Below, piece after piece: positions 3,390 to 50,297 of a stretch of 64,000 nucleotides of DNA. The DNA comes from an uncultured Staphylococcaceae bacterium. GTDB taxonomy: Bacteria; Bacillota_I; Bacilli_A; ML615J-28; CAG-313. Positions within the stretch are counted from its first letter, which is position 1. The number at the start of each line of letters is the position of its first letter. The notes beneath the pieces are model-generated. The model did no database searches. It had not been told where the DNA came from and saw only the letters and a program-made list of their open reading frames with translations. The stretch lies in assembly GCA_964541525.1 (NCBI GenBank), contig CAZIQF010000002.1, forward strand, positions 1,775 through 65,774. The letters are read 5' to 3'. The translations under genes and the position numbers were made by a program.

Positions 3390-3398
3390 GTCTACTCC

Positions 3399-5003
3399 TT
3401 AATAAATAATTTTGTCATAAATTGGTTCAATAATAAATGATGCAACGATATCAGTAACGTTACTATCAAGTGTAGGAAGATATTGTTCTTTTGCCTCATA
3501 TTTAACTAAACCATAGCAATTAGAACGTAATATTCTAATAGTATTAACTGGAATATCTGAACCGATATATTTTGAATAAGTAAGTTCATCCATTTCATAT
3601 GGTGATTTAATTGCATTTTCAACGAGTAAAGTTGAAGAAACACCATTTAAATATTTATCATTATAATCAATCATGTACTGAGGAATGATTTTTTCCGCAA
3701 CCCCTGTTTCATCATTAAGTTTTTGTTCAAATAAATCCCAAGAAATATTATATAAATCATATTTGTATTGTGAATTAACGTAATCACTTTTTTCAAAGAA
3801 TCGAACTTGATAACTTGGACTATTAGCGGTATTGCCAGTTTTAAAGGCTAGAACATCACCGATTTTAATAATTTTGTTAATCCAAAACATACTAGGTGAT
3901 TTTGCTTGAAACTCAGAATGTTTTTCATAACCATAACGATAACCTGTAGCGTAGTAAATTGCTTCGGTATATTGAAGACGTCCTTTGGTGCTAATAATTC
4001 GATACTCTTTGAAGAAAGTATCAACAACTTTAGAGTAACGATAATTAGCTACTACAGCATAACCATCATGAAAATTAGAAGCATAGGGAACTACAACTTC
4101 ACTTGTATCGTGCATTGAAGTTGTTTGACCATTATATGAATATTCATAGTAATAGTTTAGATAAAGTGATTCACCATTTTCATTAATATAATGGTATTCA
4201 ATACCTTCAAAAGGGTTATTTGCAGTATAGCTACCAACACTTGGTGCATACATTGTTTTCTTATATCCGACTCTGGCCCATCCATCATAGAAAACATCAG
4301 CAAAATCGTATTCAAATTGTGAAAATAATAATTCATTTGTTACTTTTAAAAAGTTATATTTAATTGTTTCTAACTCTTTAATTTCGGCAATATTATCAGT
4401 TAAATTACCTTCACTATCGATTTCGTAGATGACTTCTGTTTCTTTCTTGCCAACTACAGCATAATCACCACTAAATACACTGGCATAGTCATATGAAATG
4501 TTAGTTAAATTGAATTCACCATCATTATAAACTAAATAGCCATATTTATTAGCTTTGGACACGATCAAATGATTATTAGAAAAATATGATTCTGATATTA
4601 CGCTATCATTAAAAGAATAAATGATATTACCTAAATTATTAATAATATGATATTTACCATCTTTAATTACGACAGCTTTTTCTTCATACATTGGGTATAC
4701 TTTATCATAAATAGGAGCAATAACTTCTTTTCCTGTTCGGTCGATAAAGCCATATTTACCAGCTTTTTTGACACCAATATAATCGTTAAATATATCAATT
4801 ATTTCATCATAATTTGCAAGTGAAAAACGCTCATTATTGGCATTGACCAAATAAGGAATCTCTTTTTCATAACAAATCGCGATTGCGTTTTCAATGTATG
4901 TAGGATCGATATTTTTTTTACAACTATTAATGCCAATACTAATAGTTATAAACAATCCACAGATTAGTAATTTTTTAAATAGCATTTTAATATTTTTCGT
5001 CAT
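3399..5003 (-). CDS. WG-repeat (KWG-like) lipoprotein
   Basis: Signal peptide with lipobox (ISIGINSC). Repeated YGFID..GKEVI..YD / GKY..I motifs characteristic of WG-containing repeats. Confidence 0.55.
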   Translation of the reverse strand: MTKNIKMLFKKLLICGLFITISIGINSCKKNIDPTYIENAIAICYEKEIPYLVNANNERFSLANYDEIIDIFNDYIGVKKAGKYGFIDRTGKEVIAPIYDKVYPMYEEKAVVIKDGKYHIINNLGNIIYSFNDSVISESYFSNNHLIVSKANKYGYLVYNDGEFNLTNISYDYASVFSGDYAVVGKKETEVIYEIDSEGNLTDNIAEIKELETIKYNFLKVTNELLFSQFEYDFADVFYDGWARVGYKKTMYAPSVGSYTANNPFEGIEYHYINENGESLYLNYYYEYSYNGQTTSMHDTSEVVVPYASNFHDGYAVVANYRYSKVVDTFFKEYRIISTKGRLQYTEAIYYATGYRYGYEKHSEFQAKSPSMFWINKIIKIGDVLAFKTGNTANSPSYQVRFFEKSDYVNSQYKYDLYNISWDLFEQKLNDETGVAEKIIPQYMIDYNDKYLNGVSSTLLVENAIKSPYEMDELTYSKYIGSDIPVNTIRILRSNCYGLVKYEAKEQYLPTLDSNVTDIVASFIIEPIYDKIIY

Positions 5004-5445: not shown

Positions 5446-6030
5446 ATGGATGTGATTATTATGTTTGATCCATATCAATGTGCAGCAATTATTGAACAAC
5501 GTAAAAAGAAGGAGAAAAAGAAAAATGATGCTTTTTTAAATTTGCTTGTTGGGATGATTGTTGCAGTAGCGGGGCTTTATATTGTTGATATTTTTTTTAA
5601 TATCATAATGAAAAAACCTTTTAAAGAAATTTTTAATGTACGTTCAACATGGCAAGCATATTATGCATCAATTATTGCTGGGGGTATTAATGGAATTTTA
5701 GTTGTATATTTGCCTCCTAAACTTTATGGCACTGCTGCGGTTATTATTTTAACAGTTATTTATGAAACAATTGCTAAAATGACTGGACTTTCAACACTAA
5801 ATAACTTAGAGTTAACCCAAGCAATTGTTAGAGATATTTTTTTAATTAATATTATTTTTTATATTTTTGGTAAGTTTAATGATGAAGAAACAGATGATAA
5901 TGCAGAAGAAGAAATTGTATTAGGCGAATTAATCGATGTAACTTTAGTTAGTTCAATAATTATTAATTTGACAATTGTATCGACTAGATATGGGATTAAT
6001 TCTATTTTAGGAATTGGATCAATAAATTAA
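5446..6030 (+). CDS. Hypothetical integral membrane protein
   Basis: 194 aa with 4-5 predicted TM segments and an acidic loop (DDEETDDNAEEE). No recognisable motif. Confidence 0.4.
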   Translation: MDVIIMFDPYQCAAIIEQRKKKEKKKNDAFLNLLVGMIVAVAGLYIVDIFFNIIMKKPFKEIFNVRSTWQAYYASIIAGGINGILVVYLPPKLYGTAAVIILTVIYETIAKMTGLSTLNNLELTQAIVRDIFLINIIFYIFGKFNDEETDDNAEEEIVLGELIDVTLVSSIIINLTIVSTRYGINSILGIGSIN

Positions 6031-36472: not shown

Positions 36473-36546
36473 TGGAGGTCCCGATCGGATTTGAACCGAT
36501 GATCAGGGTGTTGCAGACCCACGCCTTACCGCTTGGCTACAGGACC
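36473..36546 (-). tRNA. tRNA-Cys (anticodon GCA)
   Basis: Minus strand reads GGTCCTGTAGCCAAGCGGTAAGGCG-TGGGT-CTGCAAC-ACCCT-GATCATCGGTTCAAATCCGATCGGGACCTCCA. The 7-bp acceptor stem, D-arm, anticodon loop CT-GCA-AC, T-loop GTTCAAATC and encoded CCA are all present. Confidence 0.8.
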
Positions 36547-42169: not shown

Positions 42170-42640
42170 CCCTACTTTATTCAGCTTCTATCGTTACTTT
42201 ATATCCGTTATAAAATTTGAAGGTTATGCTCTTATCTTTATTTAATATAACGACTTCTACAAATAGCGACCAGCAGGTATCATCCCACTCAGATAATTCT
42301 ACTGGTTTTTCTTTTAACCCTTTAACTTGTATTTAAAGAACTTTGAATTTGGATATTCTATTATTTTTATTACTTGAAAATAATAATTAATTATAATTTA
42401 GAAAACGCATTTATTATCCGCCTCACGTTTGAAGTTGCAAAAGCCGAATCGTTTTCTAGTTCTAGTAATCGTTTTTTGTTATATGAGCAATTCCTGCTTA
42501 AAATAAATAACAAGAACCTTTGAAACCTTTAATTTCTATAAAAAAGTATCAAAAATTCTTATTTTTCTCTATAAATAGCAAAAAAGGACTGATATTTTTT
42601 GTATCAATCCTATTGTTTCAATATGTGTGGAAATACCTAT
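42170..42640 (-). repeat. Copy 2 of the duplicated segment, with an about 46-codon start-less C-terminal ORF remnant and a REP-like terminator
   Basis: Minus strand encodes KEKPVELSEWDDTCWSLFVEVVILNKDKSITFKFYNGYKVTIEAE* with no start codon. Ends in hairpin GGACTGATA-ttttttg-TATCAATCC and tail tattgtttcaatatgtgtgg. Confidence 0.45.
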
Positions 42641-42652
42641 TTTGATACAATT

Positions 42653-42700
42653 TGCGTACACCTATTAAAAAGTGCGTACAGTTGCGAAAAAATGCGTACA
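42653..42700. repeat. 3 x TGCGTACA direct repeats with exact 20-bp period
   Basis: tTGCGTACAcc, gTGCGTACAGtt and aTGCGTACAGtt begin at 42653, 42673 and 42693. They lie between the chrA stop and its terminator hairpin. Confidence 0.6.
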
Positions 42701-42732
42701 GTTAAACTCACCGATAAATTGAAATTTGTTTA

Positions 42733-43314
42733 TCAAAATCTTAATAATGAATACATCAGCATACCAAGACCTGCCGATATTAGTATCATCAGTATCGGAG
42801 TTGGTTTTTTCTTAAATGCAAGCTTTGCTACGATACTGATTAATATCAATATGGCGAATATGATAATGCCATTAAAATCTATGGCAAGTGTATCTCCTAT
42901 ACCACTGAATCCGATTGCCGTACTCATAAACATCGTGATTGCCGTTGCGAGTATCAAGCCAACAACACACGGACGGATACCGCTGAGAAACGCTTTTACT
43001 CCCGCATATTTCATAAAGTTGCGTATCAGGGCTGCAATTATGAGAATGATAATAAATGACGGCAATACCACACCCAGCGTAGCAAGGATCGCACCGAGAA
43101 AACCGCCTTGTGACGAGCCAACGAAGGTCGCCATATTAACCGCGATCGGTCCGGGAGTGGATTCAGCTACGGCAAGCATATTGAGCATTTCTTCCTCGGT
43201 AAGCCAACCGTACATCAAAACTTTTTCTCGTATCAGCGAAATCATTCCGTATCCGCCGCCAAAGGAGAATGCACCGATCTGAAGGAAGGTTAAGAACAAT
43301 TCAAGATAGATCAT
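42733..43314 (-). CDS. chrA: Chromate transporter ChrA, short-chain half (C-terminal partner)
   Basis: 193 aa with 5-6 TMs. FGGGYGMISL motif of CHR family. Overlaps the partner gene. Confidence 0.75.
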   Translation of the reverse strand: MIYLELFLTFLQIGAFSFGGGYGMISLIREKVLMYGWLTEEEMLNMLAVAESTPGPIAVNMATFVGSSQGGFLGAILATLGVVLPSFIIILIIAALIRNFMKYAGVKAFLSGIRPCVVGLILATAITMFMSTAIGFSGIGDTLAIDFNGIIIFAILILISIVAKLAFKKKPTPILMILISAGLGMLMYSLLRF

Positions 43315-43900
43315 GTTTTTTCTCCTTCCTGATCTTGCCGAGGAGATATACCACTACGCCGCAGATCCCACTAATCAGTATGTAAAATATTGTTGAAAAC
43401 TTCACCGCGAACAACGAAAACACGATCATACAGATAAGTGTTATCGAAATAATGATCATGTTAAATGTGGTTTTCTTCATCTGCTTCAGCATCTTCAGTC
43501 CTGCTGTAAGGATTAGATATACCACACATATCTGAATCCCTTTGAAAGCGTACGCAACCAATGTAAATGAAAGAAAGGCATCAAAAAACAGCGATATAGC
43601 ATAGATAATAACAAAAGACGGAATACAAATGCCAAGCGTAGCAATCATTGAGCCGATCATTCCAGAATTTTTGTATCCTATGTAAGTTGCTGCATTAATG
43701 GCAATAGGACCGGGCGTGGATTCGGCAATCGCCGCAACATTCAAAAATTCATCTTTTTCAAGCCATTTCTTTTTTTCTACGAACTCATTTTCAAGCAGAG
43801 CGATCATGGCATATCCACCGCCAAAGGTGAACAATCCTATTTTCAGCATTGTCAAAAAGAGTGAGAGGTAGCCTTTTACTTTCTTCATAAGAGTCTCCAT
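43301..43900 (-). CDS. chrA: Chromate transporter ChrA, short-chain half (N-terminal partner)
   Basis: 199 aa. FTFGGGYAMIALL and ESTPGPIAINAATYIGY motifs. Confidence 0.75.
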   Translation of the reverse strand: METLMKKVKGYLSLFLTMLKIGLFTFGGGYAMIALLENEFVEKKKWLEKDEFLNVAAIAESTPGPIAINAATYIGYKNSGMIGSMIATLGICIPSFVIIYAISLFFDAFLSFTLVAYAFKGIQICVVYLILTAGLKMLKQMKKTTFNMIIISITLICMIVFSLFAVKFSTIFYILISGICGVVVYLLGKIRKEKKHDLS

Positions 43901-43996
43901 TTATCTAACTTACAAATTCTAATTTATCGTTTAGTTTATTATAGCACAAAAAACACATTTTTTCATTATATTCACCTGCCATATAACGAAAAAACT

Positions 43997-44046
43997 TTTC
44001 GTTCCGTTAATAAGGCTTTCGTTCCGCAGTACTACCTTTCGTTCCG
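43997..44046. repeat. 3 x TTTCGTTCCG direct repeats with 20-bp period upstream of chrA pair
   Basis: cTTTTCGTTCCGttaa, gCTTTCGTTCCGcagt and cCTTTCGTTCCGtaga begin at 43997, 44017 and 44037. They lie 100-150 bp upstream of the chrA start (minus strand). Confidence 0.6.
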
Positions 44047-44152
44047 TAGATATAACATATAAAGAAAAAGAGCCCTTCAAAAGTGCTGTTTAACACTCTC
44101 ACAAGGCTCTGCTGTTTACTTACAAAAAGGAACTAACTCCCTTTATGCAAAG

Positions 44153-44183
44153 AAAAAAAGGTTCAATACTTTTGTATCAAACC
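44153..44183 (-). terminator. REP-like hairpin terminator downstream of NUDIX gene
   Basis: AAAAAAA-GGTTCAATAC-ttt-TGTATCAAACC. Confidence 0.55.
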
Positions 44184-44189
44184 TTTGCT

Positions 44190-44340
44190 TTTCTTATGGC
44201 AACGTTACACAAATTTAATACAATTGCATACCCCTGCACTAAATCTGCATACCCTTAGGTTATTTTTGCATACCCTAAGAGCAAAAATGCATACCCTAGA
44301 GGCGTTTTGCATACCCCTATTTCTAAACGATAAATAGGAA
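44190..44340. repeat. 3-prime module A (ATGGCAACGTTAC box plus 5 x TGCATACCC at 21-bp period)
   Basis: ttatGGCAACGTTACacaaatttaatacaaTTGCATACCCC, then TGCATACCC copies at 44246, 44267, 44288 and 44308. Confidence 0.6.
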
Positions 44341-44345
44341 TTTAT

Positions 44346-44819
44346 TTATCTTAATATTCCTAATTTAATTTTGTTATCTAATTCCCATAATGCGGTCTTA
44401 TTGCTATCGTATCTAAGTCTTTTTAATGCGGTTTCATAATCAACCCATTCATATTCTGTATGTTCATGAGACAATTTTAGAATTTTGTTATCTATCTTAA
44501 CAGCAAATGAGTATTCTGGAATCACCAAACAATCTTCACCCCATATTTGTCTTGCTTCTTTAAAGCAGTATGTTGGTATGCTACTTTGAGTATCAAGAGA
44601 AACATATTTACAGTCCTTATCTATATTTGCTTCTTCATATGCTTCTCGTTTTGCGGAAGTTAACACTGTCTCATCTTCATCTTCACCACCACCCGCAATA
44701 AATTGCCAAGCATCCATATCACTTCTTTTAAAAATACAATATTTTATATTTTTCTTTTCGACATAATATGGAATAACTAATACTTGATATTTTGCTCTTG
44801 CCATTTTGTTTCCTCCCAA
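44346..44819 (-). CDS. NUDIX hydrolase
   Basis: Nudix box GGGEDEDETVLTSAKREAYEEANI. 157 aa. Confidence 0.6.
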   Translation of the reverse strand: MGGNKMARAKYQVLVIPYYVEKKNIKYCIFKRSDMDAWQFIAGGGEDEDETVLTSAKREAYEEANIDKDCKYVSLDTQSSIPTYCFKEARQIWGEDCLVIPEYSFAVKIDNKILKLSHEHTEYEWVDYETALKRLRYDSNKTALWELDNKIKLGILR

Positions 44820-44827
44820 ACTCTAAT

Positions 44828-46153
44828 TTATTTATTAACCTTCCAATATCCTCGAGTACCACCAATTCTCTCAATAATTCCTTTTTTCTTTAATTCAGCT
44901 ATAATTCTTTGAACAGATCTTGAACTTTTATTTATCAATTTACTTATTGTTTCTGATGAATAATTAGGATTAGCTTTAATAATATTTATGACCATTTCTT
45001 CATCTACTGATAAATTGACATTTACGACACTATTTGCGACACTATTTATGACATTTCTCTTAAATATAAAGGTAAAACCTTCTCTACCAGTTACATAATT
45101 AATATTAATTTTATTTTTTTCACATTCACTATATACTCTTTTTAGACCACTGCTATAAGACTCTACATCTTCTGATAAGAATAAAGTCTTTAAAATTAAC
45201 GGATTTCTCACTTTAGAAGGAATATTTTCATATACAAAGTCTTCGGGTTTATATCCTATTGGAAATTCTCCAGGATTATAAATTCTAATCATACTCGGAT
45301 GAATAGTTATTTCATGTTCAGTATTTGAATTATATCTAGCATGAGCAAAACTATTACAAATGATTTCTCGCAAAGCTTTTAATGGAATTTCGGGAGTTTC
45401 AACTCTATCAAATCCAGCAATTTCTGCTTTCCATAAAATATTTCTTTTAATGTATGTGTATGCTTCGTCAATTAAATCAAATATGTTTCCACTTATCCTA
45501 TTTATATCTAAAAATGTCAGTTTCTCATCAGTAGCAAAAACAGCCATTTTTAAAACTATTGGCTCATTTTTTGAAAATAAATAATATCCAGCATTAGTTA
45601 ACTTACCATTTTTAAATAAACCAATTTTTGAAAGCAATCTTTTTGGTTCAAAATCATCATCTTTTATTCTCCCACATGATATTGATCTTTTATAAAACCT
45701 TTCTAAAGATTTAATGTCTATATCATCTATACTGTGGTTTGATAATTGAGAATCCCAACTTTCTTGTTTATTATATTCAAACAATTGTCTAAGTTCATGA
45801 GGCTCAAGAATTCTATCCTCATCAGCTATACGAATATAATACACTCCCTTTGCTGAATATGGTCTATCACTACCTTTAAAAGATACTTCAATTATTTCCT
45901 TATCATCTATTATTCTTTTTTCTATAGTGGGGACAATTTGAGGAACAATTGTTTCATAAATCTTTCTTGAAATATCTCTTAATGTTGATTCAGTAATCAT
46001 TTGCCCTTTTGGCTCTCCATTTGGTAAAACACCAAAATAAATAGTACCATACCCGTGTTTATTAAGCATTGCACAAATTGATTGTATAGCTTCATTAATT
46101 TCTCCAGTTGTTTTTTTGAATTCCAATGTCTCATCTTCAATACCAAAGTTCAT
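44828..46153 (-). CDS. Schlafen-like AlbA_2 domain / divergent ATPase / C-terminal wHTH protein (COG2865 family)
   Basis: N-terminus E.LEFK....GEINEAIQSICAMLNKHGYGTIYFGV.PNGEPKG (AlbA_2/Schlafen core). Central HATPase_c_4-like region. C-terminal HTH ISKLINKSSRSVQRIIAELKKKGIIERIGGTRGYWKV. Confidence 0.6.
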   Translation of the reverse strand: MNFGIEDETLEFKKTTGEINEAIQSICAMLNKHGYGTIYFGVLPNGEPKGQMITESTLRDISRKIYETIVPQIVPTIEKRIIDDKEIIEVSFKGSDRPYSAKGVYYIRIADEDRILEPHELRQLFEYNKQESWDSQLSNHSIDDIDIKSLERFYKRSISCGRIKDDDFEPKRLLSKIGLFKNGKLTNAGYYLFSKNEPIVLKMAVFATDEKLTFLDINRISGNIFDLIDEAYTYIKRNILWKAEIAGFDRVETPEIPLKALREIICNSFAHARYNSNTEHEITIHPSMIRIYNPGEFPIGYKPEDFVYENIPSKVRNPLILKTLFLSEDVESYSSGLKRVYSECEKNKININYVTGREGFTFIFKRNVINSVANSVVNVNLSVDEEMVINIIKANPNYSSETISKLINKSSRSVQRIIAELKKKGIIERIGGTRGYWKVNK

Positions 46154-46212
46154 AAACTGACCTCCTAATCTATAACTATTATATCAAAATTAATAATATA
46201 TGTCAAGGATTA

Positions 46213-46243
46213 TGTCGTAAATATAATGTCGTATATTGTCGTA
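46213..46243. repeat. 3 x TGTCGTA direct repeats upstream of the Schlafen-like gene
   Basis: aTGTCGTAaatataaTGTCGTAtatTGTCGTAtaaa, located 60-90 bp upstream of the start at 46153 (minus strand). Confidence 0.45.
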
Positions 46244-46470
46244 TAAAGGTTGAAATAATCACAAAAAATACCTAACGTTTTTTTATACCCCTATCTTTTT
46301 TTAGAAGCACCTTTCATTTTTTAATGGATCTTTCGTTTTTGAGAAAATTTATCTATAGAAAAAAATCCTAAGATTGAAGTTTTAATTTTGCCTAATAGCT
46401 CAGGATTTTGTGTTAATATGGTTCATTTAATTATCAATTACGGGACTTCAACCCCCCATATCAAGATATA

Positions 46471-46508
46471 AAAAAGCTTTGAAACAGCATTTCTACTGTA
46501 TCAAAGCA
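46471..46508 (-). terminator. REP-like hairpin terminator
   Basis: AAAAAA-GCTTTGAAACAGCAtttctaCTGTATCAAAGC. Confidence 0.5.
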
Positions 46509-46630
46509 CTTTCTTCTTTAATGGCAACGTTACTCAATTTTAATACAATTGCATACCCTTAGCCTTGTAATCGTTAAAAAGTTAAATATTTTGCATATCC
46601 TAAAGGCGTTTTGCATACCCTAATATTAAT
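46509..46630. repeat. 3-prime module B (ATGGCAACGTTAC box, TTGCATACCCTTAGCCTTGTAATCGTTAAA, 2 more TGCATA(C/T)CC)
   Basis: About 85% identical to module C at 48951-49053. Confidence 0.6.
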
Positions 46631-47245
46631 TTAAATTGAATTACCGAAAACTTCATTATTAACTTCAATATCATTTTTTATCACAGAAGCTAATAATTCC
46701 CAATTGTAACAATATTTACTATCTATTTGTTGTCCTTTTCTGATATATGTTTGATTATTAGAGAATTCTTTTGTTATTGTTATATACCAATCTTGACGTT
46801 GTACTAAATTCATAAAATTAATACAAATATTTTCATTATAAAAAGAATAGCAATTAAATGGGCCATAGAACCATAATTTACCATTTTCATCTTTCATGTC
46901 TCCAATTTCTACTTTATCAAACTTAAATCCATAATCTTTAACTAAAAAACTAAAATGTTCCATTATAGAATATGATTCATCACAAATTATTTTTTTAGTT
47001 ATATTTTCACCCCAAACATAAGTATCAAAACCATCAACCCAAAATGTTTTGTCTAATAACTTTGGCTTTACAAAACTAAAAAACTTTTTAACAAAAAAAC
47101 CGTTTTTTGTATCTATAAATCCATCTTTAAGTTCTAATTCTTTAATAGCTTTATTTGCATTTTCTAAAGAACTATAGATTCCAATATCCTTTTTTTCAAT
47201 GTGATCAATAAGTTTATATTTATGTGTAACTTTATAATAAAACAT
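46631..47245 (-). CDS. Hypothetical cytoplasmic protein (204 aa)
   Basis: No TM and no known motif. Immediately downstream of the 478-aa gene (16-bp gap), so probably co-transcribed. Confidence 0.35.
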   Translation of the reverse strand: MFYYKVTHKYKLIDHIEKKDIGIYSSLENANKAIKELELKDGFIDTKNGFFVKKFFSFVKPKLLDKTFWVDGFDTYVWGENITKKIICDESYSIMEHFSFLVKDYGFKFDKVEIGDMKDENGKLWFYGPFNCYSFYNENICINFMNLVQRQDWYITITKEFSNNQTYIRKGQQIDSKYCYNWELLASVIKNDIEVNNEVFGNSI

Positions 47246-47260
47246 ACATATTTTCTCCTT

Positions 47261-48697
47261 TTAATTTAATTTCTCCTTTATCAATTCATAGATTTTCTTA
47301 TCATTTTTTGATTTATGTAAAGTATATTTTTTATTATTTACATAGAAAGAAATTTTATCATCAAATGATAAATTAGAAATGCCTTCAAAATTAGTTTCTA
47401 TAGAACGATAGCCGTTAACATATAATATTCCTTTTTCTCTAATCTCAAAACAAGAATCGAATGAAGAATTTTTTGATAATAATTCTTTTATAATTACAAT
47501 CAATGTGATAAGTAAAGTGACTACTGGGATTCCTATACCAAATATTAAATAGAATGCCCATTTCATTTCAGGATTTAATAGTTGAATAATTAGACATAAA
47601 ATATTCCATCCAAGTGCTGCAATCATTATATATTTAATCATATTTAGTAAACAATAAATTCTACTATATTTCTGACTAAATACTAATTCTCCTAATCTTT
47701 CTTCAATCGGAACTCCAAAATAATCACACCAATGGAAATCATCAAAATATAAATTATGTAGTTCACATTTATTTTTAAACTCATTGACTTTATTAAGCAA
47801 TAAAGTTATTTTTTTATTTTCTTTATTAGATATATTATACGAGTAAAAACTTAAAACATAATTTTCTAATAAGATAAAGCATTTTATCATATCATTATCG
47901 TTATCAATATATCCAATAACATTTCTTTCTTTTAAATCTAAAAAATCATTATGAATATCTCTATAAGAAATAGAATAATCAATATTATTTAATTTTAAAT
48001 CTATCCCGTCATCATTAATACTGTAATCAAAATTTTTTAATACTGTTTGTTTTTCAAAAAGGAAATTTAATGACATTTTATTAACTTTTAAAATTCTTTC
48101 TTCATTATATTTAGGTGAATCAAAATTAAATTCTATATATTGTTCTTTTTCATCAATTCTCATGTCACAATGAAAAAAAGTATCACCAACACTTAATGTA
48201 TTTTCTATTATTCCACTACATTTTAAAATAACAAGTGATCCCCATGTTGTATCAACCAATATTTCAAGTATATTACCATTTTGTTTCATTGCTAAAATAT
48301 ATGCATCGTGAAATGAGCTTGTATTAAATTCTAAAACTTCTAAACTTTTAGTTGTTTTAATATCAATATATTTAGAATCGTTAAAATTATTCGCAATATT
48401 TATTGTTTCATTTAACATGTCTAAAGTATATTTTTTACTCTTTACAATTTTAAAAATGTTTCGTTTATTCCAATATGATTTAAAATTATTTTCTACTATT
48501 GCAAAGTTGCCATGACTATAATCTATTAATAAAAATTGATTACTTGAATTACTCTTATACAAATCAATAACTATTAGTTTAGAATAATCAGCATTTAAAA
48601 CTACAGCTTTACTGCTCCATCCAGACAATGAAAGAGCCATAACTGGAGAAATATATACTTCATTTTCTGTCATTATTTTAGCAAACATAATAATCAC
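47261..48697 (-). CDS. Hypothetical protein, N-terminal soluble domain plus C-terminal 2-TM / bacterial PH (DUF304-like) module
   Basis: 478 aa. C-terminus MIAALGWNILCLIIQLL ... AFYLIFGIGIPVVTLLITLIVII followed by a PH-like segment (ILYVNGYRSIETNFEGISNLSFDD). Confidence 0.35.
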   Translation of the reverse strand: MIIMFAKIMTENEVYISPVMALSLSGWSSKAVVLNADYSKLIVIDLYKSNSSNQFLLIDYSHGNFAIVENNFKSYWNKRNIFKIVKSKKYTLDMLNETINIANNFNDSKYIDIKTTKSLEVLEFNTSSFHDAYILAMKQNGNILEILVDTTWGSLVILKCSGIIENTLSVGDTFFHCDMRIDEKEQYIEFNFDSPKYNEERILKVNKMSLNFLFEKQTVLKNFDYSINDDGIDLKLNNIDYSISYRDIHNDFLDLKERNVIGYIDNDNDMIKCFILLENYVLSFYSYNISNKENKKITLLLNKVNEFKNKCELHNLYFDDFHWCDYFGVPIEERLGELVFSQKYSRIYCLLNMIKYIMIAALGWNILCLIIQLLNPEMKWAFYLIFGIGIPVVTLLITLIVIIKELLSKNSSFDSCFEIREKGILYVNGYRSIETNFEGISNLSFDDKISFYVNNKKYTLHKSKNDKKIYELIKEKLN

Positions 48698-48737
48698 AAC
48701 TCCTTTGTAATATTATACCATACATTGTTAATTATTC

Positions 48738-48835
48738 ATAATAATTAGTAATCGTTAAATTGTTTAGTAATCGTTAAAAGGTTAAATCTTGCATACCCTT
48801 TTAATGTAATCGTTAAAAGGTTGATACTTCGCACG
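48738..48835. repeat. 5-prime module D (3 x AACGATTAC/TAATCGTTAAA boxes plus one TTGCATACCC) upstream of the 478-aa gene
   Basis: ttagTAATCGTTAAAttgtttagTAATCGTTAAAaggttaaatcTTGCATACCCttttaatgTAATCGTTAAAaggttgatacttcgcacg. Confidence 0.6.
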
Positions 48836-48923
48836 TGTTCTCTTACGCCTAGAAAAAGAAAAAAGCCCACTGAAGGACTAATAATTGCTTAACGGTGAGA
48901 CTTGTACCCTAGCAAAATAAAGA

Positions 48924-48950
48924 AAAAAGCCGATACTTCATTGTATCGAC
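48924..48950 (-). terminator. REP-like hairpin terminator
   Basis: AAAAAA-GCCGATAC-ttcattg-TATCGAC. Confidence 0.4.
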
Positions 48951-49053
48951 TATCATTAACGATAATGGCAACGTTACGCAATTTTAATACAATTGCATAC
49001 CCTTAGCCTTGTAATCGTTAAATTGTTGCTTTTTGCATACCCTAAAATATCTA
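48951..49053. repeat. 3-prime module C (ATGGCAACGTTAC box plus TTGCATACCC x 2)
   Basis: taATGGCAACGTTACgcaattttaatacaaTTGCATACCCTTAGCCTTGTAATCGTTAAAttgttgctttTTGCATACCCTAAAA. Confidence 0.6.
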
Positions 49054-49503
49054 TTATTTTATCACTTTGGAATAGTTATCATAATATAAAATATTTGCTT
49101 TTAAATTTTCTATAATATATTCTTCTATCTCTTTAGAATAAGATATTAAATTATGTATATTTTTTCTTTTTATTATTATATTGTTAGCTTTAAATTTATT
49201 TTTTAAAGCTTTTTGTGAAGGAATTAAAATTTCATTAATTTCAGATAATTCAATAACTATATTATTGCTTTTATGATTTATTAGAATAATTTGATCTGAT
49301 TTAAATTCTATAAAAGAATTTTTTAAAGTATAAGAAATATAAAAATATAAAGGGATTATAAAAGCTGATACAGAACCAAATTGAATTGATAATACCTCAT
49401 TCGTAAAAAGGTAAATTACAAGAAAGATAATAAATAATACCAAAAAAAATATTGCCGCAATCTTAAATATTTTTTCATCTTTTGCATTTCTTCTAAACTT
49501 CAT
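49054..49503 (-). CDS. Membrane-anchored bacterial PH-domain protein (YdbS/DUF304-like)
   Basis: 149 aa. Two N-terminal TM helices followed by a PH-like domain. Confidence 0.4.
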   Translation of the reverse strand: MKFRRNAKDEKIFKIAAIFFLVLFIIFLVIYLFTNEVLSIQFGSVSAFIIPLYFYISYTLKNSFIEFKSDQIILINHKSNNIVIELSEINEILIPSQKALKNKFKANNIIIKRKNIHNLISYSKEIEEYIIENLKANILYYDNYSKVIK

Positions 49504-49536
49504 TTTTTTCTCCTTACTTTTTTATAAAATTCTAAT

Positions 49537-49872
49537 TTATTTGACACTAACTTCGATGCCAACTACACCATATTTTTTTATATTTTCATCACTATAATAA
49601 GTTAACATATCGATAGGATTTGCTATTTCATTTTCGCTATACCCAATTGAAATCTTATTATGATGTTTATATAGTTCGTAAAAATTCTCATATTTATATA
49701 AATTAATAACCACACATTTCAATATTTCACTAGTTTTTGTATTGACAAATTCAATAACATCACCAATTGAAATTAATGAACGCTTTTCATCACATAATCT
49801 CATTTCAATTGTTTTTGTTTTATTCTTAATTTTTAGAAAAGAATCATTCCAAAGATTCATTTTATGAGTCAT
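49537..49872 (-). CDS. ASCH-domain (PUA-like) protein
   Basis: 111 aa. N-terminal SFLKIKNKTKTIEMRLCDEKRSLISIGDVIEF follows the ASCH pattern (beta-barrel, conserved K/R and GD). Confidence 0.5.
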   Translation of the reverse strand: MTHKMNLWNDSFLKIKNKTKTIEMRLCDEKRSLISIGDVIEFVNTKTSEILKCVVINLYKYENFYELYKHHNKISIGYSENEIANPIDMLTYYSDENIKKYGVVGIEVSVK

Positions 49873-49974
49873 TTCATCATCACTTCCTACATTACAAATT
49901 CTAATTTATTGTTTATTTAATTTTACCACAAAACGACCAAAAAGTATATTTATATGGTTATTTAAATTGGAGAT

Positions 49975-50075
49975 TTCTAGTAATCGTTAAATTGTTAGGT
50001 AATCGTTAAAAGGTTCATAAATTTGCATACCCTAAACCTTATAATCGTTAAAAGGTTCAAGCTTCGCTCACGTTC
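49975..50075. repeat. 5-prime module E (same architecture as module D) upstream of ASCH gene
   Basis: tagTAATCGTTAAAttgttaggTAATCGTTAAAaggttcataaatTTGCATACCCTAAAccttaTAATCGTTAAAaggttcaagcttcgctcacg. Confidence 0.6.
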
Positions 50076-50142
50076 GCCTATTAATTAATGGTTGAAAAAG
50101 TATCCTTATAAAATAAAAAACGCCCACACAGGGCAAATAAAA

Positions 50143-50168
50143 GGCATAACGGCGGGACTTGAACCCAT
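50143..50168 (-). other. tRNA 3-prime-end-like fragment (T-arm GGGTTCAAGTCCC plus acceptor strand)
   Basis: Minus strand reads GGGTTCAAGTCCCGCCGTTATGCC. It is not part of a complete tRNA. Confidence 0.25.
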
Positions 50169-50175
50169 ATAATAA

Positions 50176-50206
50176 TAAAAAATCTCGATACTTTTATTGT
50201 ATCAAG
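50176..50206 (-). terminator. Terminator of tRNA-Lys (REP-like hairpin)
   Basis: Minus strand CTTGATAC-aataaaa-GTATCGAG-ATTTTTT directly after the tRNA. Confidence 0.55.
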
Positions 50207-50221
50207 ATTAATCATCTCAAA

Positions 50222-50297
50222 TGGTACACCCTTAGGGACTCGAACCCTAGACCCACTGATTAAGAGTCAGTTGCTCTACCAACTGAGCTAAGGGTGC
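50222..50297 (-). tRNA. tRNA-Lys (anticodon CTT)
   Basis: Minus strand reads GCACCCTTAGCTCAGTTGGTAGAGCA-ACTGA-CTCTTAA-TCAGT-GGGTCTAGGGTTCGAGTCCCTAAGGGTGTACCA with a canonical cloverleaf and encoded CCA. Confidence 0.85.

What the first reader, a model, noticed from the sequence alone, without database searches (positions are those of the whole stretch)
44225..44318. Five TGCATACCC copies phased at exactly 21 bp (two helical turns) in a 3-prime UTR-like position
Copies begin at 44225, 44246, 44267, 44288 and 44308. The same 9-mer recurs once or twice in each of the other cassette modules (46540-46620, 48780-48800, 49000-49045, 50020-50035). Strict helical phasing of a short motif is the hallmark of iterons or multimeric regulator binding, with all sites on one face of the DNA. 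It could equally be a periodic RNA motif (GGGUAUGCA) in the transcript 3-prime end.
Basis: seen in the sequence. Interest (0 to 1): 0.55.

Follow-up and report, generated by a model that had tools for sequence, protein, structure and literature searches.

The report
Recombination-site repeats of tRNA-targeted gene cassettes
The five evenly spaced TGCATACCC copies are real and conserved across many low-GC bacteria; they sit beside the crossover point of small mobile gene cassettes that insert at the CCA end of tRNA genes, cassettes that lack a recombinase and probably borrow one from related prophages.

Summary
TGCATACCC occurs 5 times at 21/21/21/20 bp. All 11 window copies lie on one strand within 6 kb (0.19 expected).

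The array is not a local oddity. About 35 low-GC genomes (Acholeplasma oculi, Anaeroplasmataceae, Erysipelotrichaceae, RF39-like MAGs) carry the same module, always just after the last gene of a small cassette, with spacing held at 20-21 bp (or 42).

The last repeat abuts a 52-bp imperfect palindrome, TTGTATY-N18-CA-N18-GATACAA. Its central CA is where homology between cassettes breaks. It coincides with the terminal CA of whichever tRNA gene heads the array (11 of 11).

Autonomous relatives (Heliusvirales-type prophages) carry two tandem large serine recombinase genes followed by the same layout: iterons, then TTGTAT-N18-CA. The window keeps a decayed 3' remnant of such a recombinase gene at 42332-42180.

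Best reading: the array is a set of phased "arm-type" protein-binding sites on the P arm of a serine-recombinase attachment site, here on recombinase-less cassettes stacked after tRNA-Lys. The binding protein and its exact role are inferred, not shown.

Plasmid-type replication iterons and a 3'-UTR RNA motif are poorly supported.

The parts
44225..44316 (-). The finding: five iterons (GGGTATGCA read in gene direction) at 21/21/21/20 bp. This is the P-arm repeat array ('D-block') of cassette C.
44316..44338 (-). Conserved hairpin CCTATTTATCGTTTAGAAATAGG directly after the NUDIX stop codon. It forms the distal edge of the D-block and recurs after unrelated genes in other genomes.
44172..44223 (-). 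att-like core TTGTATT-N18-CA-N18-GATACAA (central CA at 44198-44197). Junction between cassette C and the chrA cassette.
44157..44186 (-). Intrinsic terminator hairpin. Its 5' arm holds the GATACAA outer motif of the P' arm.
44197..46521 (-). Cassette C: own promoter (46206-46178), Schlafen/AlbA_2-wHTH gene (46153-44828), NUDIX gene (44804-44346), D-block.
46497..46548 (-). att-like core at the junction of cassettes B and C (CA at 46523-46522).
46550..46620 (-). D-block of cassette B: iterons at 46550, 46592 (one mismatch) and 46612, plus one TTTAACGATTA at 46568-46578.
46522..48965 (-). Cassette B (478-aa and 204-aa genes, no Pfam match). It is 95.6% identical to a cassette that sits behind tRNA-Ser in Acholeplasma oculi ATCC 27350.
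48746..48817 (-). U-block of cassette B: TTTAACGATTA three times plus one iteron (48790), upstream of the cassette promoter.
48941..48992 (-). att-like core at the junction of cassettes A and B (CA at 48967-48966).
48994..49042 (-). D-block of cassette A: iterons at 48994 and 49034, plus TTTAACGATTA at 49012.
48966..50221 (-). Cassette A (ASCH-domain gene 49872-49537 and 149-aa gene 49503-49054).
49978..50052 (-). U-block of cassette A: TTTAACGATTA three times plus one iteron (50024).
50197..50223 (-). attL-type junction: terminal CA of tRNA-Lys, then N18, then GATACAA.
50222..50297 (-). tRNA-Lys(CTT), the integration target that heads the array.
42624..44196 (-). chrA cassette: CGGAACGAAA three times at 20-bp spacing (44046-43997), promoter, two chromate-transporter half genes, and its own D-block.
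42653..42700 (-). Variant iteron array TGTACGCA, three copies at 20-bp spacing, abutting TTGTATC.
42599..42650 (-). att-like core after the chrA cassette (CA at 42625-42624).
42180..42332 (-). Decayed 3' end (51 codons) of a large serine recombinase gene of the LSR2 type.

Best explanation
**What it is.** The array is the repeat-bearing P arm of the attachment site of a small mobile gene cassette.

**Cassette layout (read on the minus strand).** Each cassette runs from one central CA to the next:
1. CA, N18, GATACAA, and a terminator hairpin.
2. A tRNA-T-arm-like fragment and a second terminator.
3. A 'U-block' (TTTAACGATTAC-type repeats, with or without one iteron).
4. A promoter and one or two cargo genes.
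5. A 'D-block' (2-5 GGGTATGCA iterons phased at about 21 bp).
6. TTGTATY, N18, CA.

**How cassettes move (inferred).** The 52-bp imperfect palindrome centred on CA is the crossover site of a large-serine-recombinase (LSR) system. The chromosomal partner is the terminal CA of a tRNA gene's encoded CCA. Cassettes therefore stack head-to-tail behind a tRNA. Here the order is tRNA-Lys, then cassettes A, B, C and chrA, then a decayed recombinase element. The window's cassettes encode no recombinase. They would be moved in trans by the two-recombinase module of related prophages.

**What the iterons do (inferred).** They are accessory 'arm-type' sites bound by several copies of one protein on one face of the helix, directly next to the recombinase's outer half-site motif. 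They would help build or control the recombination complex (site identity or directionality). Because copies also lie upstream of cassette promoters, they may couple this to cassette expression.

**Likely binder (inferred).** The best candidate is the small HTH/Cys-rich protein (phrog_2308) encoded just upstream of the recombinase pair in autonomous elements. One of the two recombinases is the alternative.

**Shown versus inferred.**
- Shown: the architecture, its conservation, the breakpoints, and the linkage to LSR genes.
- Inferred: protein binding, the identity of the binder, and any effect on recombination.
For: 1. **Phasing and orientation are conserved across genera.** 54 of 69 close spacings are 20-21 bp, and 7 more are exactly 42 bp. 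The flanks show an extended consensus T-W-R-GGGTATGCA-A-W.
2. **Position is fixed.** In all 10 related loci inspected, the D-block lies 12-60 bp after the last cassette gene, whatever the cargo. No neighbouring protein is conserved. Cargo is accessory in type: GNAT, HTH_3, AbiEii, Fic, R-M subunits.
3. **The core site is regular.** 30 of 31 D-block ends have CA exactly 18 nt after TTGTATY. GATACAA follows 18 nt later wherever another cassette comes next.
4. **Breakpoints fall at that CA.** Window cassette B (46521-48969) is 95.6% identical to an A. oculi segment that lies behind tRNA-Ser rather than tRNA-Lys, and homology stops at CCA|TT.
5. **tRNA junctions match.** 11 of 11 tRNAs that head cassette arrays read ...CCA-N18-GATACA[AG]. 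None of 4 other tRNAs with readable downstream sequence in the same loci does.
6. **Recombinase linkage.** Two tandem LSR genes are followed by iterons and then TTGTAT-N18-CA in four loci:
   - L124: GGGTATGCA, 3 copies.
   - L228: GGGGTGTGCA, 2 copies at about 21 bp.
   - L229: CGTGAACA, 3 copies at 20 bp.
   - Anaeroplasmataceae phage PV036447: GGGGTGTCG, 3 copies. Its other end begins CACCA-N18-GATACTT and then carries TAGAACGATTAC three times plus a promoter.

7. **Remnants.** L060 and L097 keep the last 110-180 bp of the LSR2 gene beside the D-block. The window has its own LSR2 C-terminal remnant (hhalign probability 97.9%, E 3.9e-13).
8. **Enrichment near distant recombinases.** Among LSR2 homologues of 45-54% identity, 28 of 105 have phased 8-mers within 330 bp downstream, against 42 of 939 control windows. 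Most are TGCACACC(C). In L252 and L244 the layout is tRNA-CCA|N18|GATACAA|hairpin|TTTAACG x2|GGGTGTGCA x2-3, with LSR2 converging.
9. **Candidate binder.** L228 and L229 have unrelated iterons although their LSR1 (73%) and LSR2 (70%) are similar. Their phrog_2308 proteins are only 41% identical.
Against: - No binding or recombination was tested, and cannot be with these tools.
- Characterised large serine integrases use simple 40-50 bp sites without accessory repeats (general knowledge). The proposed role therefore has no experimental precedent in this enzyme family.
- Only 28 of 105 LSR2-homologue loci show phased repeats downstream. Streptococcus phage phi1207.3, a studied two-LSR element, has the TTGTATC motif at its right end but no phased array. 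The iterons are thus not essential to the whole family.
- No intact recombinase or phrog_2308 gene lies in the 64-kb window. Present-day mobility in this genome is unproven.
- No viral contig carries GGGTATGCA next to TTGTAT in a non-coding context. A cognate helper for exactly this iteron type was found only once (L124).
- The link between iteron type and phrog_2308 rests on very few loci.
Confidence: 0.6

Rival explanations
1. **Transcriptional operator array.** The repeats would chiefly be binding sites for a repressor or activator, host- or helper-encoded. This regulator would control cassette promoters, or an antisense promoter at the cassette's 3' end. Their nearness to the crossover site would be incidental.
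For: - Copies of GGGTATGCA, together with TTTAACGATTAC-type repeats, lie about 40-100 bp upstream of conserved extended -10 cassette promoters in the window and in L020, L058, L070, L104 and L116.
- A promoter-like ATGGCA-N17-TACAAT on the + strand fires into the array at all three D-blocks.
- Other cassettes have their own triple repeats upstream of promoters: CGGAACGAAA three times, ATACGACA three times.
Against: - The largest arrays sit downstream of genes, not at promoters.
- The last iteron always abuts TTGTATY at 0-4 nt, in every lineage, including those with different iteron sequences.
- The + strand '-10' TACAAT is simply the reverse complement of the conserved TTGTAT half-site motif.
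- This reading is not exclusive of the main one.
Confidence: 0.2
2. **Replication iterons.** The array would be the origin of an excised circular cassette or of the parental phage, bound by a Rep-type initiator supplied in trans.
For: - Five direct repeats at about 21-22 bp is the classic geometry of iteron origins (general knowledge).
- Iteron sequence differs between related elements, as Rep/iteron pairs do.
- Some viral contigs have non-coding GGGTATGCA-like arrays (L008, L015).
Against: - No Rep-family gene was seen in the three array-bearing window cassettes, in the LSR elements inspected, or among the 25 most frequent Pfam families of 150 neighbouring ORFs.
- No AT-rich unwinding element or DnaA boxes were noted next to the arrays.
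- Array position is tied to the crossover site and to recombinase genes, not to replication genes.
Confidence: 0.07
3. **Periodic RNA motif.** GGGUAUGCA in the 3' UTR would be bound by an RNA-binding protein or would shape mRNA 3' end stability.
For: - In D-blocks the array is transcribed, lying between a stop codon and a terminator.
- The region folds more stably than shuffles (z = -5.8).
Against: - The stable fold is mainly the terminator plus pairings between non-conserved spacers.
- The same motif also occurs upstream of promoters. In distant LSR loci it reads in the opposite sense relative to the recombinase gene upstream of it.
- One copy is inverted in phage PV036447.
- Conserved helical spacing of 20-21 and 42 bp fits duplex DNA.
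- No Rfam family matches.
Confidence: 0.05

Closest known systems
SCC elements of staphylococci (SCCmec, CcrA/CcrB)
   Same: - Autonomous members carry two tandem large serine recombinase genes, about 440 and 527 aa.
- Insertion is at one precise point at the 3' end of a conserved gene.
- Elements accumulate head-to-tail, including ones without recombinase genes that must be moved in trans (general knowledge for SCC; for the window).
   Different: - The target is the CCA end of many different tRNA genes, not rlmH.
- Units are 1.3-2.4 kb cassettes with their own promoter.
- The att region carries phased iterons and a second repeat family, which are not a described feature of SCC.
- In complete elements the recombinase genes sit at the element's edge, and the elements look like tailed prophages.
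Attachment sites of phage large serine integrases (Bxb1, phiC31, A118/LI, TP901-1)
   Same: - An imperfect inverted repeat of about 50 bp surrounds a central dinucleotide where strands are exchanged, with outer and inner half-site motifs.
- The integrase gene lies next to attP (general knowledge).
   Different: - Known sites are minimal and need no accessory DNA.
- Here 2-5 phased iterons abut the outer motif on the P arm, and further repeats lie on the P' arm.
- There are two recombinases instead of one.
Arm-type and Xis/Cox sites of tyrosine-integrase attP (lambda, L5, P2)
   Same: Short direct repeats in the arms flank a core, are bound by several protein copies, set directionality, and differ between related elements (general knowledge).
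   Different: - The associated enzymes are serine, not tyrosine, recombinases.
- The period is about 21 bp rather than about 10-11 bp.
- No integrase of the tyrosine family was seen near any array-bearing locus among the most frequent Pfam families.
res sites of small serine resolvases (Tn3/gamma-delta, Sin)
   Same: A crossover site lies at one end and accessory binding sites extend about 100 bp to one side. These are used to build a regulatory synapse (general knowledge).
   Different: - Resolvase accessory sites are inverted-repeat dimer sites of the same enzyme.
- Here the sites are 9-bp direct repeats, and the enzymes are large serine recombinases with zinc-ribbon domains.
Integron gene cassettes and attC (including CALINs)
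   Same: - Arrays of small cassettes, each with one or two genes.
- Fixed gene orientation, with a recombination site of about 130 bp at the 3' end of each cassette.
- Accessory or defence-type cargo.
- Arrays without a nearby recombinase.
   Different: - No IntI, attI or Pc.
- The sites are not folded attC palindromes, and Rfam finds none.
- Cassettes carry their own promoters and terminators.
- The target is a tRNA CCA end.
CIMEs and accretion at tRNA-Lys in streptococci
   Same: Recombinase-less elements bounded by att sites accumulate in tandem at the 3' end of tRNA-Lys(CTT) and are mobilised in cis or trans by a related element (general knowledge).
   Different: Those systems use tyrosine integrases and a duplicated stretch of the tRNA 3' end. 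Here the exchange point is the terminal CA and the enzyme family is serine.
Plasmid replication iterons (P1, F, R6K, RK2)
   Same: Number, length and roughly two-turn spacing of the direct repeats.
   Different: No Rep gene or origin features. The context is a recombination site.

Membership tests
Large-serine-recombinase attachment site | Imperfect inverted repeat of about 40-52 bp around a central dinucleotide | tested here: met
   TTGTATY-N18-CA-N18-GATACAA. 30 of 31 D-block ends have CA at exactly +18. There are four full sites and one attL-type site in the window.
Large-serine-recombinase attachment site | Element boundaries (homology breakpoints) fall at the central dinucleotide | tested here: met
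   The same cassette lies behind tRNA-Lys in the window and behind tRNA-Ser in A. oculi, with identity ending at CCA|TT. 11 of 11 heading tRNAs read CCA-N18-GATACA[AG].
Large-serine-recombinase attachment site | Cognate large serine recombinase gene adjacent in autonomous elements | tested here: met
   L124, L228, L229, PV036447, L252 and L244 all show Resolvase + Recombinase + Zn_ribbon_recom. The window has only a 51-codon remnant.
Large-serine-recombinase attachment site | Recombination between the sites is catalysed by the enzyme | not testable with these tools
   Needs an in vitro or in vivo assay.
Plasmid-type replication iterons | Tandem direct repeats at roughly two helical turns | tested here: met
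   Spacing of 21/21/21/20 bp, conserved in relatives.
Plasmid-type replication iterons | Linked initiator (rep) gene on the same replicon | tested here: not met
   No Rep family in the three array-bearing window cassettes. None among the 25 most frequent Pfam families of 150 neighbouring ORFs. None in the LSR elements inspected.
Plasmid-type replication iterons | Adjacent AT-rich unwinding element and DnaA boxes | not tested
   Not searched for formally. None was noted while reading the flanks.
Integron cassette / attC | IntI tyrosine recombinase with attI and Pc at the head of the array | tested here: not met
   The head of the array is a tRNA gene, and the neighbour beyond it is a VTT/DedA-type membrane protein. 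No recombinase was found in the 30 ORFs scanned between window positions 26.9 and 63 kb.
Integron cassette / attC | attC: imperfect palindrome with R''-L''/L'-R' boxes that folds as single-stranded DNA | tested here: not met
   The D-block consists of direct repeats plus a 52-bp site. There is no Rfam attC match in the window.
SCC-type elements (CcrAB) | Two tandem large serine recombinase genes | tested here: met
   Present in autonomous relatives, not in the window.
SCC-type elements (CcrAB) | Integration at the 3' end of rlmH (orfX) | tested here: not met
   Targets are tRNA genes: Lys, Ser, Leu, His, Trp, Arg, Pro, Met.
Tyrosine-integrase attP with arm-type sites | Tyrosine recombinase encoded by the element | tested here: not met
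   The associated recombinases are of the serine type. Phage_integrase is not among the frequent neighbour families.
Structured or periodic RNA motif | Fixed sense relative to transcription, and a known or covarying structure | tested here: not met
   The motif also lies upstream of promoters. In distant LSR loci it reads in the opposite sense relative to the recombinase gene upstream of it. There is no Rfam hit. The fold is dominated by the terminator. Covariation was not formally tested.

The most novel reading that the evidence does not exclude
A widespread and so far undescribed cassette system in wall-less and low-GC Bacilli (Acholeplasmatales, Anaeroplasmataceae, RF39-like, Erysipelotrichaceae).

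- Promoter-bearing mini-cassettes of 1-2.5 kb parasitise the two-serine-recombinase integration module of Heliusvirales-type prophages.
- They insert at the terminal CA of almost any tRNA gene and stack into integron-like arrays.
- Their attachment sites are unlike every characterised serine-integrase site. They are lambda-like composite sites whose arms carry phased iterons (GGGTRTGCA family) and a second repeat family (AACGA core). A dedicated small HTH/zinc-finger protein or the second recombinase would read these repeats to set site identity and directionality.
Probability: 0.35. Interest if true: 0.8.

Novelty: new variant of a known kind. Interest (0 to 1): 0.66.

Why it matters
**For serine-integrase biology.** Large serine integrases are valued as genome-engineering tools because their sites are thought to be short and self-sufficient. 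A large natural family whose sites carry conserved, phased accessory repeats, together with two recombinases and a conserved small DNA-binding protein, would point to an unstudied layer of control over site choice or directionality.

**For genome plasticity.** The same data reveal an integron-like way of building variable gene arrays (defence, detoxification, acetyltransferases). It operates behind tRNA genes in Acholeplasma-like and gut Bacilli lineages, where little is known about mobile elements. It also links these arrays to one of the most prevalent gut prophage lineages.

**For annotation.** The rule 'tRNA-CCA + N18 + GATACAA' and the D-block signature allow such cassettes to be annotated automatically. 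They also explain why assemblies break at these loci.

Tried and rejected
- **Whole island against phage and plasmid collections**. Only the tRNA and one cargo gene matched, so the island is not a known element.
- **Exact D-block end pattern in viral contigs.** One search gave no hits. The two hits were coding sequence by chance.
- **Phased-pair pattern in viral and genome collections**. Many hits were peptide-coding repeats in high-GC or cyanobacterial DNA and were discarded after reading them.
- **Conserved neighbour protein around the arrays.** None was found.
- **Close-strain variation through exact-protein look-ups**.
- **Association between arrays and LSR2 homologues at 45-49% identity in viral contigs, using the exact 9-mer.** None was found. 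The link appeared only after allowing other iteron sequences.
- **Coding peptide repeat.** Rejected, because spacings of 20, 22 and 24 bp break any frame.
- **Transposon end repeats of the Tn7/Mu type.** Rejected, because all copies are direct and there are no inverted ends.
- **tRNA-mimic reading of the D-block end.** A 5-bp stem with a 7-nt loop exists in variant 1, but it is not conserved in the other variants, so the idea was dropped.
- **Inverted repeat between the 5' leader motif AAATTAGAATTT and the D-block hairpin**. Not pursued, because the leader motif precedes many ordinary genes.
- **Literature searches for the motif and for the architecture.** Nothing relevant was found.
Full report
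**1. The observation**

TGCATACCC occurs at 44225, 44246, 44267, 44288 and 44308 on the + strand, with spacing 21, 21, 21 and 20 bp.
- The window holds 11 exact copies. All are on the + strand and all lie within 44225-50032. Shuffles give a mean of 0.19 and never more than 3.
- A twelfth copy with one mismatch lies at 46592.
- Genes in this region run on the minus strand. In gene direction the motif therefore reads GGGTATGCA.
- The array lies between the stop codon of a NUDIX gene (44348-44346) and an intrinsic terminator at 44186-44157.

**2. Local anatomy**

Read on the minus strand, the region behind tRNA-Lys(CTT) (50297-50222) is a head-to-tail series of units.

Each unit has, in order:
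1. a terminator hairpin containing GATACAA;
2. a fragment resembling a tRNA T-arm and acceptor strand;
3. a second terminator;
4. a "U-block" of TTTAACGATTAC-type repeats, with or without one GGGTATGCA;
5. a promoter;
6. one or two genes;
7. a "D-block" made of a small hairpin, 2-5 GGGTATGCA iterons, and the sequence TTGTATTAAAATTGnGTAACGTTGCCA.

| Cassette | Cargo |
|---|---|
| A | ASCH-domain gene plus a 149-aa gene |
| B | 478-aa and 204-aa genes with no Pfam family |
| C | Schlafen/AlbA_2-wHTH gene plus a NUDIX gene |
| chrA | two chromate-transporter half genes |

The chrA unit has its own D-block with a different iteron: TGTACGCA, three copies at exactly 20-bp spacing, again abutting TTGTATC. 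No recombinase gene was found in the 30 ORFs scanned between 26.9 and 63 kb of the window.

**3. Related sequences**

A scan of one genome per species for two phased copies returned many irrelevant peptide-coding repeats. It also returned about 35 low-GC loci (25-37% G+C) with the same non-coding architecture. Sources include:
- Acholeplasma oculi;
- Anaeroplasmataceae;
- Erysipelotrichaceae;
- "Bacilli bacterium", "Mollicutes" and CAG MAGs.

Across these loci:
- Unit spacing is 21 bp (38 times), 20 (16), 22 (5), 19 (4), 24 (5) or 42 (7).
- The unit consensus extends to T-W-R-GGGTATGCA-A-W.
- In all 10 loci inspected for gene orientation, the array lies 12-60 bp after the 3' end of the last gene, in fixed orientation.
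- No protein is conserved next to it.
- The cargo is typical accessory material: GNAT acetyltransferases, HTH_3, AbiEii, Fic, R-M subunits, Sel1 proteins.
- Several loci have several arrays 0.6-2.5 kb apart.

**4. Where the cassettes begin and end**

- Window 46521-48969 (cassette B) is 95.6% identical to A. oculi ATCC 27350 L063 2415-4843. There the cassette follows tRNA-Ser(GGA), not tRNA-Lys.
- Identity stops right after the tRNA's CCA in A. oculi and right after "...GTTGCCA" of the preceding D-block in the window.
- Aligning 31 D-block ends gives TTGTATY-N18-CA in 30 cases. Wherever another cassette follows, N18-GATACAA comes next.
- All 11 tRNA genes that head arrays (Lys, Ser, Leu, His, Trp, Arg) read ...CCA-N18-GATACA[AG]. 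None of the 4 other tRNAs with readable downstream sequence in the same loci does.

The window has one tRNA-type junction and four full sites, listed here by their minus-strand coordinates:

| Junction | Coordinates |
|---|---|
| tRNA-Lys / cassette A | 50223-50197 |
| A / B | 48992-48941 |
| B / C | 46548-46497 |
| C / chrA | 44223-44172 |
| chrA / next element | 42650-42599 |

The cassette boundary is thus the central CA of a 52-bp imperfect palindrome. The chromosomal target is the last two bases of an encoded tRNA CCA.

**5. The enzyme family**

*Tandem recombinases next to the module.* In L124, two tandem large serine recombinase genes (Resolvase + Recombinase + Zn_ribbon_recom; 440 and 527 aa) are followed within 56 bp by GGGTATGCA three times and GTGTATC-N18-CA.

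*Remnants.* L060 and L097 keep only the last 110-180 bp of that recombinase gene next to the same D-block. The window has a 51-codon remnant of the same C-terminus at 42332-42180, beyond the chrA cassette. Support for this:
- tblastn E 6.6e-7;
- phrog_18012;
- hhalign probability 97.9%, E 3.9e-13;
- a hit from the LSR2 of a second element.

*Closer homologues of LSR2* sit at the end of prophage-like elements, in a conserved four-gene module: phrog_2308, phrog_2996, LSR1, LSR2. Each is followed by the same layout with a different iteron:
- L228: GGGGTGTGCA twice at about 21 bp;
- L229: CGTGAACA three times at 20 bp.

*A deposited complete phage.* Anaeroplasmataceae phage NatCom_34063 (PV036447, Ca. 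Heliusvirales) shows both arms.
- The right end is LSR2, GGGGTGTCG three times, then TTGTATT-N18-CA.
- The left end is CACCA-N18-GATACTT, a hairpin, TAGAACGATTAC three times, one inverted iteron and a promoter.
- This is the D-block/core/U-block arrangement of the window's cassettes.

*More distant gut-Firmicute homologues (45-54% identity).*
- 28 of 105 have phased 8-mers within 330 bp downstream, against 42 of 939 control windows. Most are TGCACACC(C).
- In L252 and L244 the order is tRNA-Pro or tRNA-Met CCA | N18 | GATACAA | hairpin | TTTAACG twice | GGGTGTGCA two or three times, with LSR2 converging.

*A studied relative.* The family includes the two-recombinase Streptococcus phage phi1207.3. 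Its right end carries TTGTATC but no phased array.

**6. Mechanism**

*Shown:*
- The array is one component of a conserved composite recombination region.
- The region's core has the form expected of a large-serine-recombinase site.
- Its boundaries are at the central dinucleotide.
- Autonomous relatives encode two such recombinases beside it.

*Inferred:*
- The cassettes in the window are recombinase-less derivatives, moved in trans and stacked behind tRNA-Lys. This is comparable to ccr-less SCC elements or streptococcal CIMEs.
- The iterons are accessory sites bound by several copies of one protein on one helical face, next to the outer half-site motif. They would influence assembly, site identity or directionality, and possibly cassette promoter activity, because copies also lie upstream of promoters.

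*Who binds:*
- L228 and L229 have similar LSR1 (73%) and LSR2 (70%) but unrelated iterons. Their phrog_2308 proteins, which have an N-terminal HTH and Cys-rich repeats, are only 41% identical. That small protein is the leading candidate.
- The GGGTRTGCA type is conserved across LSR2 proteins that are only about 47% identical. The iteron core nnGT(A/G)(T/C)nCA also resembles the TTGTATY half-site motif. Both points keep a recombinase subunit in play.

I put 0.85 on "part of an LSR-type cassette attachment site". I put about 0.6 on the full statement, including the accessory binding role.

**7. Rivals**

- *Pure transcriptional operator (0.2).* It fits the promoter-proximal copies and the + strand promoter-like match. 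It does not explain the invariant abutment to TTGTATY, and the "-10" of that promoter match is the half-site motif itself.
- *Replication iterons (0.07).* The geometry fits, but no Rep gene and no origin context were seen.
- *RNA motif (0.05).* The motif is transcribed in D-blocks. However, it also occurs in non-transcribed positions, reads in the opposite sense relative to the upstream recombinase gene in distant LSR loci, and occurs once in inverted orientation. Its spacing follows DNA helical logic, no Rfam family matches, and the stable fold is mostly the terminator.

**8. Comparison with known systems and novelty**

It works most like an SCC/CcrAB-type or serine-integrase system in enzyme and core site. 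It works like lambda-type attP or resolvase res in having accessory repeats. It resembles integron arrays in its product.

It fails the defining tests for integron attC, plasmid iterons, tyrosine-integrase attP and SCC (see the membership table).

I found no description of this architecture in the searchable literature. That is absence of evidence only. I rate it a new variant of a known kind.

**9. Limits**

- No experiment was possible.
- The organism is only inferred to be Acholeplasma-like: 29% G+C, a cassette shared with A. oculi, and no name retrievable.
- The cognate helper for exactly this iteron and core variant was not found.
- The protein-iteron covariation rests on a handful of loci.

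Noticed in passing
window 50166-50143, 48909-48886, 46455-46435 (minus strand): Each cassette carries, between its two terminators, a fragment resembling the T-arm plus 3' acceptor strand of a tRNA (e.g. GGGTTCAAGTCCCGCCGTTATGCC). It is not the 3' end of tRNA-Lys. Similar fragments occur in L020, L049, L062, L063, L068 and L110. Origin and function are unknown; it may be a relic of an older target or a secondary site.
   Followed up: partly
window 44046-43997; 46244-46215 and 45053-45020; 42475-42447: Other phased short repeats lie upstream of cassette promoters: CGGAACGAAA three times at exactly 20 bp (before chrA); (T)ATACGACA three times before the Schlafen/AlbA_2-wHTH gene, with inverted TTTACGACA/TTTGCGACA copies inside that gene; and AAAACGATT twice at 20 bp. 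They share an AACGA or ACGAC core with TTTAACGATTAC and with TAGAACGATTAC of phage PV036447. This looks like a second family of protein sites with variable specificity.
   Followed up: partly
window 43951-43905 vs 49933-49887: The promoter and leader of the chrA cassette and of cassette A are 85% identical although the genes differ. A leader motif AAATTAGAATTT precedes several ribosome-binding sites in the island (also before 42109, 44804 and 49503). The D-block hairpin contains its near reverse complement (inverted repeat 43914-43934 / 44323-44343, 90%).
   Followed up: no
window 42332-42180 and 42598-42340: Beyond the last full att site lies a degraded element: U-block-like repeats, no intact genes, then only the last 51 codons of a large serine recombinase. 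This is followed by an MGMT-like DNA-binding gene (42109-41804) with the same leader motif. The far end of the island was not located.
   Followed up: partly
window 36473-36546 (tRNA-Cys) to 35680: Downstream of tRNA-Cys there are two terminators, antisense T-arm-like fragments (about 36335-36300) and a SHOCT-domain gene. After that gene lies a half site CA-N18-GATACAA (35707-35681). There are no iterons and no GATACAA at +18 from the tRNA. It may be an old, degenerate cassette of the same kind. Region 36255-36475 matches cassette borders in L104 and L116.
   Followed up: partly
L228 8131-11584; L229 4647-8115; L230 8219-11581; L311 (PV036447) 1099-4582: A conserved four-gene module sits at the edge of prophage-like elements: phrog_2308 (HTH plus Cys-rich repeats, 91-132 aa), phrog_2996 (67-88 aa), LSR1 (about 435 aa) and LSR2 (about 527 aa). 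Neither small protein has an assigned function. They are candidates for directionality factors or iteron binders.
   Followed up: partly
L228 11774-11825: A second complete TTGTATT-N18-CA-N18-GATACAA site lies 100 bp after the first, without iterons or cargo. It looks like an empty tandem att site next to a prophage end.
   Followed up: no
L313 (phi1207.3, AY657002) 5915-5992: The right end of the studied Streptococcus element phi1207.3 (two tandem serine recombinases) ends with TTGTATC followed by about 18 nt. This is the same outer motif as in the Acholeplasma-type sites, so the motif may be a family-wide half-site signature.
   Followed up: partly
window 45235-46155 (query 1336-2255): The Schlafen/AlbA_2-HATPase_c_4-wHTH cargo gene is about 70% identical at DNA level to genes on two small Mycoplasmopsis arginini records in the plasmid collection (NZ_LR215045/46). 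This points to exchange of this cargo among Mollicutes.
   Followed up: no
L008 1640-1745; L015 270-335; L016 200-290 (viral contigs): Non-coding or gene-end arrays of GGGTATGC(A)-like units at 21-23 bp spacing occur in three unrelated viral contigs of 27-44% G+C. Their context was not analysed.
   Followed up: no
L139, L140-L147 (metagenome contigs of the same strain): Short-read assemblies of this organism consistently break at the tRNA-Lys end and at cassette borders. The repeated att modules therefore cause assembly gaps, and such arrays are probably under-represented in MAGs.
   Followed up: no
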